Assembly (NCBI RefSeq): GCF_045037415.1 | Contig: NZ_CP173438.1 | Strand: one strand, 5' to 3' | Length of the DNA stretch: 64,000 nt | Origin: Escherichia coli | Lineage (GTDB): Bacteria > Pseudomonadota > Gammaproteobacteria > Enterobacterales > Enterobacteriaceae | The notes under the pieces: generated by a model | The model's input: the letters and a program-made list of their open reading frames with translations, nothing else | Databases searched by the model: none | Told to the model about the DNA's origin: nothing | Part shown: positions 27,772-29,785 of the stretch, one piece after another | How the letters are laid out: every line of letters begins with the position of its first letter | Position numbering within the stretch: position 1 is the stretch's first letter | Translations under genes and position numbers: made by a program

Positions 27772-28260
27772 TTACCAGTCGAAAGTGGGTAAATCCGGCA
27801 GGCATTCAGTGCTGGCATCCAGATGAATGAGACTGACGCCATAACGTCGGGTAAGTGTGACAACCAGACGGCGGAACGTTTTTGACAGCCCCAGGCGTTT
27901 AAGCCGCAGAACCGGGTATGACCACGCATCGGTACGTAACAGATATCCGCTACCTGTAAAATGAATCCATTCTGATTCGCCGGTGTCATTCGTCTGATGC
28001 GACAGCGAGTACAGCCAGGCGTTGTCTGTTTCCGTGATATGCGCGGTACTACAGCGTATACCGCTCAGGGCAGCAGAGGGGGGTATGCTGTCTGTTGAGG
28101 TCCGGTCAGATTCATCAACAACACGAAGGGAGTAGCCATTATCGCAGACCACGTTAATCAGTTCGGCAAGCTCAACACCATCGACGTCAACGACAATTCG
28201 CCCCATGTTCAGTGCCTGTACGTTAACGCTGTCAGCTTCCAGCGTCAGGGCCAGTTTCAT
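27772..28260 (-). CDS. Hypothetical protein immediately downstream of cbtA (YeeW-position gene)
   Basis: 162-aa ORF whose start overlaps the cbtA stop by 4 bp. Confidence 0.4.
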
Positions 28261-28634
28261 CGTTTTGCCTCCGGATGCTTGCCCTGGGTAATGTTATTTA
28301 CCATTCTGTAATTGTTCCGGGTCATCAGGCCGGTCGCCCTGCGAGCCCGGAGAATATCAATGCTGTTGATTAACTGCGACGGGGCTCCTGCGCTGAATCC
28401 CGGCTGGTCGGTACGTACCTGCGCGTATTTTTCAACGAGAAAGTTCACCGCGTCACACAGTGAAATCCCTGCCTCAATATGCTGCTCAATCACACGTTCA
28501 TCAGCGAACGGTGTGTCATTCAGCGTGAGGCCATAGTGCTGGTCCAGCAGTCGGGTGAGCAGTGTCTGCCAGATGGTGACGGGAGACGGGCAGCGCGATG
28601 CCGCCCGTACGTGTGTGTCGGGTAATGTTTTCAT
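28257..28634 (-). CDS. cbtA: CbtA/YeeV-family toxin (cytoskeleton-binding toxin)
   Basis: 125-aa ORF; strong recalled similarity to YeeV/YkfI/YpjF (…[46 protein letters not shown]…). Confidence 0.85.
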
Positions 28635-28722
28635 ACTGAAGATTTTCCTGATATGCAGATATAAAAATGGAAAAGTGGCGTGGTGAAAACACCAGGCCGT
28701 AGCAGAAGGCTATTCTGGAGAG

Positions 28723-29091
28723 TTAATTTTTCATTTCGGGCGTCGGATAAACAGCCAGATAAACGTAATCACAGGAGCCCAGGGTATCGGCTTCGCAGGT
28801 CAGTCCTTTCGCATACAGTGTGACGGTATGCTGATGGCGGGGATTCAGTTCACCGCTGGTGAGCATGAGTTCCGGTTGTTTCATCAGCAGCGGAAAGGCC
28901 TGGTCCGGATGGTACGCATCCGCATCGCTGAACCGGCCTCTGATACCGGCGCGGTCGGCAAGGTAATGCAACCGGTTACCCTCCTGCACCAGACAGGCCC
29001 CGAAACAGGGCGTCACGGTGCAGGGCAGCCCCCACCAGGGGAGGTCTTTGTTGTCGTCGGGAAGCGTTGTTCCGGGGAGTGTGTCCGACAT
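28723..29091 (-). CDS. cbeA: CbeA/YeeU-family antitoxin
   Basis: ORF 28723..29199; start moved to MSDTLPGTTLPDD... giving 122 aa; directly upstream of cbtA. Confidence 0.85.
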   Translation of the reverse strand: MSDTLPGTTLPDDNKDLPWWGLPCTVTPCFGACLVQEGNRLHYLADRAGIRGRFSDADAYHPDQAFPLLMKQPELMLTSGELNPRHQHTVTLYAKGLTCEADTLGSCDYVYLAVYPTPEMKN

Positions 29092-29140
29092 GATAAAATC
29101 CTCACAGAAAATCGGTGAATGATAGTTTAACGATGACGGG

Positions 29141-29785
29141 TCAGCCGGCGCGCAGACCGGCTTCGGTGAAGGTATATTCGTTGATGAGAAGGGCCTCATC
29201 CACAGCGGTGTCTGAGGTCAGCCAGTCGTACTTGTTTTCCAGCTGGCGGTACAGCCAGAAGGCCAGGTCGCGCAGGGCTTCGCTGACAGCGGCTTCCGCA
29301 TCGGTTGTCATTGCCTGACCAGTCGGACTGTTCCGGGTGACGGTGATATCCATGCTGTACGGATGGCAGTAACGTCCCCGGTGACTGATTTCAGCCTGAA
29401 GCTGCCAGAAGTTACGTTTCTGCACCGCCTGCAGGGTATCCGCGATACGATGAAGCTCACGGTCCTGAGGGGCATATTCCCTGATTTTCCGGGGTGTCGC
29501 TGGCTGCCAGTGCCAGCGCCCTTCAAAACAGGCTCCGTCCCCCTGGCTGCAGAATCCGCTGAACCAGATGCACGGCTCTTCCATAAACCTGCCATTGCTG
29601 AGCCGGAAAACGCGCTGGCGGAGGTCAATCCCGAAAATGCCACAGACCTCCCTGAAGTCTTCATACACGTTTTCATACCAGTTGCTGTCAGCATGATGCT
29701 GACGGTACCAGTCGCGGGCTTTTCCCCGTGCCGGGCAGGAAAGTTCATCCAGCGTATACACTGTGATGGTGATAATGCTGCTCAT
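29141..29785 (-). CDS. Hypothetical Cys-rich protein between yeeT-like and cbeA
   Basis: 214-aa ORF; several Cys and Trp residues (CIWFSGFCSQGDGACFEG); no family recognised. Confidence 0.45.
   Translation of the reverse strand: MSSIITITVYTLDELSCPARGKARDWYRQHHADSNWYENVYEDFREVCGIFGIDLRQRVFRLSNGRFMEEPCIWFSGFCSQGDGACFEGRWHWQPATPRKIREYAPQDRELHRIADTLQAVQKRNFWQLQAEISHRGRYCHPYSMDITVTRNSPTGQAMTTDAEAAVSEALRDLAFWLYRQLENKYDWLTSDTAVDEALLINEYTFTEAGLRAG

What the first reader, a model, noticed from the sequence alone, without database searches (positions are those of the whole stretch)
28257..29785. CbtA/CbeA toxin-antitoxin pair with an extra Cys-rich gene inserted between yeeT and cbeA
The CbeA-CbtA pair is clear and intact. 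Compared with the K-12 CP4-44 order that I recall (yeeS-yeeT-yeeU-yeeV), there is an additional 214-aa Cys/Trp-rich ORF between the yeeT-like gene and cbeA. Its function is unknown and it may be a module-specific accessory factor.
Basis: partly seen in the sequence, partly recalled or inferred. Interest (0 to 1): 0.4.

Follow-up and report, generated by a model that had tools for sequence, protein, structure and literature searches.

The report
Uncharacterised mobile-element gene beside CbeA/CbtA
The extra 214-aa gene next to the CbeA/CbtA toxin-antitoxin pair is real and belongs to a large family of unknown function found in conjugative elements, plasmids and phages; the K-12 gene order lacks it because K-12 deleted it.

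Summary
On the minus strand the window encodes DUF987/YeeT (29804-30025), a 214-aa ORF "X" (29141-29785), CbeA (28723-29091) and CbtA (28257-28634). None of the three K-12 modules has X.

- **X was not inserted.** The K-12 CP4-44 yeeT-cbeA spacer keeps X's ribosome-site region, its first 8 codons and its 3' flank, a net loss of about 639 bp. This scar is in 2527 of 5426 complete E. coli genomes. Intact X is in 2024.
- **X is not specific to CbtA/CbeA.** It belongs to a family of about 3500 clusters at 50% identity, about 210 aa. RefSeq now names a roughly 60%-identical copy DUF8835; the older name was "antitoxin of toxin-antitoxin stability system".
- **Most relatives have no toxin-antitoxin neighbour.** In 80 related genome loci, nearly all alphaproteobacterial, X sits among ArdC, ParB, RadC and a giant helicase. 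Only one of the 80 has CbeA/CbtA.
- **It also occurs in lytic phages**, among early-type small genes.

X is under purifying selection (dN/dS 0.11-0.31). The AlphaFold model is confident (pLDDT 96) but matches no solved fold. The motif SGFxSQGDGA, Tyr139 and His141 are conserved.

Best reading: a backbone gene for element establishment or anti-defence, biochemical function unknown. Interest is moderate.

The parts
31120..31938 (-). DUF932 gene (YafZ/YfjQ-like), first gene of the backbone operon
   Evidence: PF06067 E=7.4e-52; RefSeq CDS in JJ1887
30580..31065 (-). Antirestriction protein gene (ArdB/KlcA-type, YfjX/YafX-like)
   Evidence: PF03230 E=2.4e-37
30088..30579 (-). RadC-like JAB domain gene (YeeS-like). 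RefSeq starts it at 30564.
   Evidence: PF04002 E=8.3e-45
29804..30025 (-). DUF987 gene (yeeT-like)
   Evidence: PF06174 E=7.5e-39; 99% identical to K-12 YeeT
29141..29785 (-). 214-aa gene X. The family has no model in the Pfam, NCBIfam or PADLOC copies searched. RefSeq names a homologue 'DUF8835 domain-containing protein'; the older name is 'antitoxin of toxin-antitoxin stability system'.
   Evidence: PHROG 5162 E=1.2e-34, unknown function
28723..29091 (-). cbeA (yeeU) type IV antitoxin gene, 122 aa
   Evidence: PF06154 E=2.6e-50; 93% identical to K-12 CbeA
28257..28634 (-). cbtA (yeeV) toxin gene, 125 aa
   Evidence: PF06755 E=1.8e-60; 85% identical to K-12 CbtA
27772..28260 (-). DUF5983 (full-length YeeW-like) gene; overlaps the cbtA stop by 4 nt
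   Evidence: PF25638 and PF19419
27558..27755 (-). DUF957 gene, last gene before the terminator-like hairpin
   Evidence: RefSeq annotation of the identical JJ1887 locus
27504..27530 (-). Terminator-like hairpin, the strongest candidate for the 3' end of the operon. Three shorter minus-strand terminator-like matches lie upstream of it.
   Evidence: 10-pair stem (7 GC) followed by a T-run
31988..32017 (-). Terminator-like hairpin upstream of the DUF932 gene, the likely 5' boundary of the transcription unit
   Evidence: 13-pair stem followed by a T-run

Best explanation
X (29141-29785, minus strand) is a genuine, selected, cytoplasmic single-domain protein. It belongs to a very large family of unknown function carried by mobile elements, which RefSeq now calls DUF8835.

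X is part of the conserved backbone of CP4-44-like integrative elements: DUF932, antirestriction, RadC, DUF987, X. The same kind of cassette (SSB, DUF932, RadC, small protein, X, giant helicase, Toprim) occurs in alphaproteobacterial ICEs and conjugative plasmids. The slot just downstream of X is where toxin-antitoxin cargo sits: CbeA/CbtA in E. coli, ParS/RES in Rhodobacterales plasmids. The K-12 order yeeT-cbeA arose when about 639 bp of X were deleted.

Inferred mechanism:
- X is probably translated from the polycistronic backbone mRNA (inferred from gene spacing), and it acts independently of CbtA/CbeA.
- It acts as an establishment or anti-defence-type factor when the element or phage enters a cell.
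- It acts through a conserved pocket, by binding or modifying a host protein, nucleotide or nucleic-acid target. The pocket would be formed by the SQGDGA beta-hairpin, the Y139/H141 hairpin, E14 and Y179.

Shown here: gene reality, family breadth, genomic context, the K-12 deletion, and lack of homology to CbeA. Inferred: timing of expression, the anti-defence or establishment role, and the pocket.
For: **Real gene.** 3483 clusters at 50% identity, consistently about 210 aa. dN/dS 0.11-0.31. pLDDT 95.9.

**Ancestral state and K-12 deletion.**
- Remnant in the CP4-44 spacer.
- Scar junction in 2527 genomes; intact X in 2024 genomes.
- CbeA-CbtA DNA at 13480 places in 4919 genomes.

**Backbone context.**
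- The strongest terminator-like hairpins on this strand flank the gene run, at 31988-32017 and 27504-27530; gaps between genes range from a 4-nt overlap to 88 nt.
- GC content of X (56-59%) matches neighbouring backbone genes.

**Not TA-specific.**
- Neighbours in 80 genome loci: up138 73, SNF2/strawberry-notch helicase 75, ParB-like 59, Toprim 47, RadC-like 43, ArdC 41, CbeA/CbtA 1.
- Mesorhizobium ICE locus.
- Conjugative MOBP/MPF_T plasmid pOT1-7: H-NS, SSB, DUF932, RadC x2, X, ParS/RES, helicase, Toprim.

**Phage early-type locations.** X lies in the 22-kb terminal repeat of Caulobacter phage CcrBL9 and in small-gene arrays of phage Av-05.

**Literature.** Leading regions are enriched in anti-defence, SSB, methyltransferase and TA genes, and 33% of the top 100 families there are uncharacterised (PMC11541004; PMC12826799).

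**Conserved residues.** The motif residues persist in phage homologues at 28-33% identity.
Against: - The anti-defence or establishment role rests on guilt by association only.
- The E. coli element is a chromosomal island. No relaxase or oriT was examined in the window, so 'leading region' is an analogy, not a demonstration.
- In enterobacteria X is always beside CbeA/CbtA, sometimes between antitoxin and toxin. This leaves room for a TA-related role.
Confidence: 0.55

Rival explanations
1. X is a functional third component of the CbeA/CbtA module, for example a regulator, chaperone or second antitoxin.
For: - In Enterobacteriaceae X is always adjacent to the pair, in two orders. E. coli has DUF987-X-CbeA-CbtA. 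Klebsiella michiganensis, Salmonella diarizonae and E. coli ES1 have DUF987-CbeA-X-CbtA.
- An in-frame X-CbeA fusion is found in 29 complete genomes and in at least two X alleles.
- X lies directly upstream of another TA pair, ParS/RES, in Rhodobacterales plasmids.
Against: - 79 of the 80 best genome loci have no CbeA/CbtA, and none of the 80 has ParS/RES. Phage homologues have no TA neighbours.
- No homology to CbeA.
- About 2800 loci carry the deletion scar; in K-12, the one examined, both TA genes are intact. From my own knowledge, the K-12 pair was characterised without X (Brown & Shaw 2003; Tan 2011; Masuda 2012).
- The AlphaFold2 model of the natural fusion has a disordered linker (residues 220-246, pLDDT below 50) and pTM 0.67, against 0.88 for X alone. 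This gives no confident domain packing.
- CbeA in the fusion keeps its own GAGGA site and GTG start.
Confidence: 0.12
2. X is an enzyme or ligand-binding protein that works with the neighbouring RadC-like JAB protein and small partner (DUF987 in E. coli, up138 in alphaproteobacteria) in processing incoming DNA, rather than inhibiting host defence.
For: - Invariant or near-invariant polar residues persist from E. coli to phage homologues at 28% identity: E14, Q81, D83, Y139, H141, Y179, plus the Gly-rich hairpin SQGDGA. This pattern is more typical of an active or ligand site than of a fast-evolving inhibitor.
- The order RadC, small gene, X is conserved: a RadC-like gene about 590 nt upstream in 43 of 80 loci, and up138 overlapping X by 8 nt in 63 of the 78 loci with an upstream ORF (homologue directly upstream in 73 of 80).
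- Neighbours are DNA-processing proteins: ParB-like, helicase, Toprim.
Against: - No similarity to any known enzyme fold.
- Phage homologues lack RadC and up138 neighbours.
- E. coli has DUF987 rather than up138, and no up138 homologue was found in the window.
- No cofactor motif was recognised.
Confidence: 0.2
3. X is a decaying or non-functional passenger ORF in E. coli, on its way to loss as in K-12.
For: - It was lost by deletion in 2527 genomes.
- Frameshifted, truncated, duplicated or fused variants exist (P0001, P0036, P0045; a frameshifted copy).
- The E. coli copy is less acidic (net charge -6) than the family median (-16).
Against: - Intact, full-length copies are present in 1942-2024 genomes, with up to 8 copies per genome.
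- dN/dS is 0.31 even between close E. coli alleles and 0.11-0.21 to distant ones.
- All motif residues are retained.
Confidence: 0.08

Closest known systems
K-12 CP4-44 yeeS-yeeT-cbeA-cbtA-yeeW module (and the CP4-57 and CP4-6 paralogues)
   Same: Same backbone and order. YeeT is 99%, CbeA 93% and CbtA 85% identical. Both lie in an Ag43-associated island.
   Different: K-12 lacks X. Its yeeT-cbeA spacer is a deletion scar that keeps X's first 8 codons. The K-12 yeeW is also truncated, whereas the window has a full DUF5983 gene, a DUF957 gene and a DUF4942 gene.
DUF8835 / 'antitoxin of toxin-antitoxin stability system' proteins (database names only; no characterised member)
   Same: X is 100% identical to WP_000094916.1. 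It is 57-66% identical over its full length to proteins carrying these names in Salmonella, Klebsiella, Citrobacter and many alphaproteobacteria.
   Different: The 'antitoxin' name has no support. X has no homology to CbeA. The name probably spread from X-CbeA fusion proteins or from the CbeA-X-CbtA arrangement (inference).
Leading-region anti-defence islands of conjugative plasmids (Samuel et al. 2024, PMC11541004)
   Same: X co-occurs with antirestriction (KlcA/ArdB-type, ArdC), SSB, ParB-like, RadC and TA genes, all on one strand, together with many uncharacterised families.
   Different: No oriT or relaxase was mapped for the E. coli island. Early expression and anti-defence activity of X are untested. 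X matches no PADLOC family and no known anti-defence family.
ArdA/Ocr-type acidic DNA-mimic antirestriction proteins
   Same: Most family members are strongly acidic (median net charge -16, pI 4.8) and are encoded next to antirestriction genes.
   Different: There is no sequence or fold similarity. The E. coli copy has a net charge of only -6. Invariant polar residues suggest a pocket rather than a DNA-like surface.

Membership tests
CbtA/CbeA type IV toxin-antitoxin pair (the two flanking genes) | Toxin with a full-length CbtA_toxin domain (PF06755) | tested here: met
   E=1.8e-60, model positions 1-112 of 112; 85% identical to K-12 CbtA
CbtA/CbeA type IV toxin-antitoxin pair (the two flanking genes) | Antitoxin with a CbeA_antitoxin domain (PF06154) encoded immediately upstream on the same strand | tested here: met
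   E=2.6e-50; 93% identical to K-12 CbeA; 88-nt gap to cbtA
CbtA/CbeA type IV toxin-antitoxin pair (the two flanking genes) | CbtA inhibits MreB/FtsZ polymerisation and CbeA counteracts this by bundling the filaments | not testable with these tools
   Needs toxicity and cytoskeleton assays
CbeA/YeeU antitoxin family (for X, as its old database name implies) | Sequence or profile homology to CbeA (PF06154) | tested here: not met
   No Pfam hit for X or for 58 relatives; hhalign probability 0.2%
DUF8835 (for X) | Full-length homology to proteins that RefSeq names 'DUF8835 domain-containing protein' | tested here: met
   The copy named DUF8835 in E. coli ES1 aligns to X residues 1-214 at about 60% identity, E=9e-73
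DUF8835 (for X) | Score above the gathering threshold of the DUF8835 HMM itself | not testable with these tools
   The model is absent from the Pfam and NCBIfam copies available
Antirestriction ArdB/KlcA family (PF03230) (for X) | Homology to the Antirestrict domain | tested here: not met
   No Pfam hit; hhalign against the neighbouring antirestriction protein gives probability 0.3%
Leading-region / early-entry anti-defence genes (for X) | Genomic association with antirestriction, SSB, ParB-like and TA genes on conjugative elements, same strand | tested here: met
Leading-region / early-entry anti-defence genes (for X) | Position just downstream of oriT on the T-strand, with early (ssDNA-promoter) expression in the recipient | not tested
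   oriT, relaxase and Frpo elements were not mapped for these elements
Leading-region / early-entry anti-defence genes (for X) | Demonstrated inhibition of a host defence system | not testable with these tools
   Needs experiments; no match to any PADLOC or known anti-defence family

The most novel reading that the evidence does not exclude
X/DUF8835 defines a new, very widespread family of early-acting mobile-element effectors. The family has about 3500 clusters at 50% identity across ICEs, conjugative plasmids, CP4-like islands and lytic or jumbo phages. Its fold has no solved relative, and it has a conserved catalytic or ligand-binding pocket (SQGDGA hairpin, Y139, H141, E14, Y179). In this reading it neutralises a common bacterial defence or stress pathway, for example as an enzyme or sponge acting on a defence signal or target.
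Probability: 0.3. Interest if true: 0.65.

Novelty: new variant of a known kind. Interest (0 to 1): 0.38.

Why it matters
- **The textbook order is a derivative.** The K-12 order yeeS-yeeT-cbeA-cbtA is a deletion derivative. The fuller cassette, present in about 37% of complete E. coli genomes including ST131, carries an extra conserved gene.
- **The islands resemble ICE and plasmid cassettes.** That gene links the 'cryptic prophage' CP4-like islands to the ArdC/ParB/RadC/helicase cassettes of alphaproteobacterial ICEs and plasmids, and to early regions of phages. This supports viewing CbeA/CbtA as cargo sitting in an establishment or anti-defence backbone.
- **The database name is misleading.** The name 'antitoxin of toxin-antitoxin stability system' has no support and should not be propagated.
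- **X is a tractable target.** It is a small, well-folded protein of unknown function with clear point-mutation targets, suitable for anti-defence screens.

Tried and rejected
**Family and structure searches for X that found nothing useful**
- Pfam, NCBIfam and PADLOC: no family. Pfam on 59 relatives gave only scattered chance hits.
- Pfam on longer relatives and on neighbouring small proteins (up138, the 161-, 216- and 76-aa proteins): nothing.
- PDB by sequence and by profile: nothing.
- Foldseek against PDB: best E-value 0.13.
- BFVD: only uncharacterised phage proteins.
- afdb50 was not available.

**Comparisons and models**
- hhalign of the family against CbeA, the antirestriction protein and DUF5983: all negative.
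- AlphaFold2 model of the natural X-CbeA fusion: no confident interdomain packing. The tool gives no PAE, so this is weak evidence.

**Context look-ups that were uninformative**
- Several metagenome representatives landed on contigs too short to be useful.
- The P0141 locus showed only a DNA methylase nearby.

**Literature and other scans**
- Searches for the WP accession, PHROG 5162, DUF8835 and 'toxin-antitoxin stability system' with yeeU returned nothing. DUF987 with CbtA and the DUF-name combination returned only unrelated genome reports.
- No Rfam family in 27000-33000.

**Ideas rejected**
- A Cys-based metal site: the cysteines are not conserved.
- Recent foreign insertion of X: its GC content matches the backbone.
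- The sigma-70-like site at 29119-29090 as a cbeA promoter: its -10 element overlaps the start codon.
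Full report
**1. What is in the window**

All relevant genes are on the minus strand. In transcription order they are:

| Gene | Coordinates |
|---|---|
| DUF932 | 31120-31938 |
| Antirestriction, PF03230 | 30580-31065 |
| RadC-like JAB | 30088-30579 |
| DUF987 / YeeT-like | 29804-30025 |
| 214-aa ORF, here 'X' | 29141-29785 |
| CbeA | 28723-29091 |
| CbtA | 28257-28634 |
| DUF5983 | 27772-28260 |
| DUF957 | 27558-27755 |
| DUF4942, DUF6088 and a truncated AbiEii | further downstream |

The DNA of X is 100% identical to that of ST131 strains such as JJ1887, where the island lies between Ag43 and the kps capsule genes and X is annotated 'hypothetical protein', WP_000094916.1. 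CbeA is 93%, CbtA 85% and YeeT 99% identical to the K-12 CP4-44 proteins. Both TA genes cover their Pfam models end to end.

Gaps between genes range from a 4-nt overlap to 88 nt. The strongest terminator-like hairpins on this strand lie at 31988-32017, upstream of the DUF932 gene, and at 27504-27530, after the DUF957 gene. Three shorter matches lie between them, at 31936-31921, 28694-28676 and 28464-28444. X therefore most likely sits in the middle of one polycistronic unit, but this is an inference. No Rfam family is present.

**2. X is a real gene**

- phmmer against 1.84 billion representative proteins finds 3483 clusters at E<=1e-3 and 1899 at E<=1e-10. Nearly all are 200-225 aa and align end to end.
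- Pairwise dN/dS is 0.31 to a 95%-identical E. coli allele. It is 0.11-0.21 to copies from Klebsiella, Salmonella and Mesorhizobium and to a divergent E. coli copy.
- AlphaFold2 with a 59-sequence alignment gives pLDDT 95.9 and pTM 0.88, an alpha/beta single domain.
Family positions are D/E, C/A, C/A, W/S/C, C/S and Y/S/C, so there is no Cys-based site.
- The residues that are conserved, even in phage homologues at 28-33% identity, are E14, S76-G77-F78, Q81-G82-D83-G84-A85, F87, G89, Y139, H141, W177, Y179, and the C-terminal ANEYxFxxxG.

**3. K-12 lost the gene; the window did not gain it**

K-12 CP4-44, CP4-57 and CP4-6 all have the DUF987 gene directly followed by the antitoxin. But the 73-nt CP4-44 spacer reads GTGGGAATTCTG-ATGAGCAGAATTATCGCCACTACC-GGACCATTCTTAGCCGATTTTCTGTAAGGATTTTATC-GTG. 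It has three recognisable parts:

- the Shine-Dalgarno-like region of X;
- X's start and first eight codons, MSRIIATT (other X alleles start MSRIITTTVY);
- the last roughly 35 nt that precede cbeA in X-containing loci.

The spacer is 712 nt in the window and 73 nt in K-12, a net loss of about 639 bp.

A 42-nt probe that can only match across this junction hits 2801 places in 2527 of 5426 complete E. coli genomes. Intact X DNA is found at 2942 places in 2024 genomes, with up to 8 copies per genome. CbeA-CbtA DNA of this type is found at 13480 places in 4919 genomes. Roughly a fifth of the modules carry X, a fifth carry the K-12 scar, and the rest are other types, including the CP4-6 and CP4-57 types, which show no remnant. 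The GC content of X (56-59%) matches the neighbouring backbone genes.

**4. X is not specific to CbtA/CbeA**

*Genome loci.* The 80 best loci from 100,044 species genomes are 79 alphaproteobacterial loci (or MAGs labelled only Proteobacteria) plus Salmonella diarizonae, at 57-63% identity. Counts of neighbours in those 80 loci:

| Neighbour | Loci (of 80) |
|---|---|
| Acidic 138-aa protein of unknown family ('up138') directly upstream (8-nt overlap in 63 of the 78 loci with an upstream ORF) | 73 |
| ~1450-aa SNF2 / 'strawberry notch' helicase downstream | 75 |
| ParB-like | 59 |
| Toprim | 47 |
| RadC-like | 43 |
| ArdC | 41 |
| DUF2958 | 32 |
| CbeA/CbtA (the Salmonella locus) | 1 |
| ParS/RES | 0 |

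*Individual elements.*
- A Mesorhizobium ICE shows ArdC, DUF2958, ParB, up138, X, DUF4326, helicase and Toprim.
- The conjugative MOBP/MPF_T plasmid pOT1-7 shows H-NS, SSB, DUF932, RadC x2, DUF6878, up139, X, a ParS antitoxin, a RES toxin, the helicase and Toprim. A Pseudosulfitobacter plasmid is the same.
- tblastn finds X in 110 plasmids, 41 of them typed conjugative.
- tblastn finds X in 58 phage genomes. These include Caulobacter giant phages, where it lies in the 22-kb terminal repeat. They also include Acinetobacter and Pseudomonas phages, RaK2-like jumbo phages and E. coli phage Av-05, where it sits in an array of small unknown genes.

*Conclusion.* The common denominator is a mobile-element cassette of early or establishment type. 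The order DUF932, RadC, small gene, X is shared between E. coli islands and alphaproteobacterial plasmids. The slot after X holds different TA pairs in different lineages.

**5. What still links X to the TA pair**

- In enterobacteria X is always next to the pair, in two orders. E. coli has DUF987-X-CbeA-CbtA. Klebsiella michiganensis, Salmonella diarizonae and E. coli ES1 have DUF987-CbeA-X-CbtA.
- A natural in-frame fusion exists. X's stop TGA has become TTA and 34 nt of spacer are deleted, giving a 343-aa X-CbeA protein. It is present in 29 complete genomes.
- An AlphaFold2 model of this fusion keeps X at high confidence. Its linker is disordered (residues 220-246) and pTM is 0.67, so there is no sign of domain packing. 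CbeA keeps its own GAGGA site and GTG start.
- X has no detectable homology to CbeA, to the antirestriction protein or to DUF5983.

The old database name 'antitoxin of toxin-antitoxin stability system' is therefore best explained as annotation spill-over from such fusions or from the CbeA-X-CbtA order. This is an inference. The newest RefSeq annotation calls a roughly 60%-identical copy 'DUF8835 domain-containing protein'. No paper in the library mentions that name.

**6. What it does**

Nothing in Pfam, NCBIfam, PADLOC, PDB or BFVD gives a function. PHROG 5162 matches at E=1e-34 but has no known function. The family is mostly acidic, with median net charge -16; the E. coli copy is -6.

The context matches what Samuel et al. 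describe for plasmid leading regions. Those regions are enriched in anti-restriction, SSB, methyltransferase and TA genes, and a third of the most prevalent families there are uncharacterised (PMC11541004; see also PMC12826799).

My best-supported reading is that X is a backbone establishment or anti-defence-type protein that acts on its own. It probably works through a pocket built by the SQGDGA hairpin, Y139/H141, E14 and Y179. The role and the pocket are inferences.

Rivals:
- an enzyme or ligand binder cooperating with RadC and the small partner in DNA processing (confidence 0.2);
- a true TA accessory (0.12);
- a decaying passenger (0.08).

**7. Verdict**

The arrangement is a common but unstudied variant of the known CP4-44-type module, and the K-12 'canonical' order is the derived state. 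Interest is moderate. The TA pair itself is ordinary. X is a widespread, well-folded family of unknown function with clear experimental handles.

Noticed in passing
L097-L099 (gene at 5001-6032); junction at L098:5640-5665: A natural in-frame X-CbeA fusion protein of 343 aa. X's stop TGA has become TTA and 34 nt of spacer are deleted. The exact junction is present in 29 of 5426 complete E. coli genomes, and the fusion occurs with at least two X alleles.
   Followed up: yes
L007-L009 (7610-8996), L054, L105 (3957-5404): An alternative gene order, DUF987-CbeA-X-CbtA, with X between antitoxin and toxin. Seen in Klebsiella michiganensis, Salmonella diarizonae and one E. coli strain (ES1, where X is frameshifted and named DUF8835).
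   Followed up: partly
L005:7592-8008; L012:8589-9008; 73 of 80 loci in L014-L093: An acidic 138-aa protein family with no Pfam match (starts MADYFTHFSCL...) lies directly upstream of X in alphaproteobacterial ICEs and plasmids; its ORF overlaps X by 8 nt in 63 of the 78 loci with an upstream ORF. It looks like a translationally coupled partner. No homologue was found in the window.
   Followed up: partly
L012:9704-10803; L106:14716-15803: In Rhodobacterales plasmids a ParS/Xre antitoxin and a RES NAD+ phosphorylase toxin occupy the slot immediately downstream of X. This is the same slot that CbeA/CbtA occupies in E. coli.
   Followed up: partly
L094:7053-7283: In a divergent E. coli island, an extra 76-aa ORF with no Pfam match lies between CbeA and CbtA.
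   Followed up: no
Proteins P0001, P0036, P0045: Rearranged X variants. P0001 has an internal duplication of the first ~70 residues. P0036 is an antirestriction-X fusion in which RadC and DUF987 are deleted. P0045 is an X-DUF5983 fusion in which CbeA and CbtA are deleted. These suggest frequent deletion or recombination between the islands, or assembly errors.
   Followed up: no
window 25238-26559 (minus strand): An AbiEii/AbiGii-type nucleotidyltransferase toxin gene that RefSeq marks as frameshifted; the window has a 246-aa ORF at 25431-26171. It overlaps a DUF6088 (AbiEi-like) gene at 26164-26559, so this appears to be a degraded second TA or abortive-infection pair at the island edge.
   Followed up: no
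window 29090-29119 (minus strand): The only sigma-70-like match in 27400-32400 (TTCACC, 18-nt spacer, TATCAT). It lies in the X-cbeA spacer, but its -10 element overlaps the cbeA start codon, so it is unlikely to be the cbeA promoter.
   Followed up: partly
L002:7052-7102 (K-12 CP4-44): The deletion scar in K-12 forms a 16-codon ORF, MSRIIATTGPFLADFL*, that ends 10 nt before the cbeA GTG start. It might still affect cbeA translation.
   Followed up: no
L003:4920-5869 (K-12 CP4-57): The current K-12 annotation names the antirestriction and RadC-like paralogues lfgA and lfgB ('CP4-57 prophage protease'). A 2024 paper (PMC10846083) reports that LfgB cleaves the antitoxin MqsA. This may bear on what the RadC-like neighbour of X does.
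   Followed up: no
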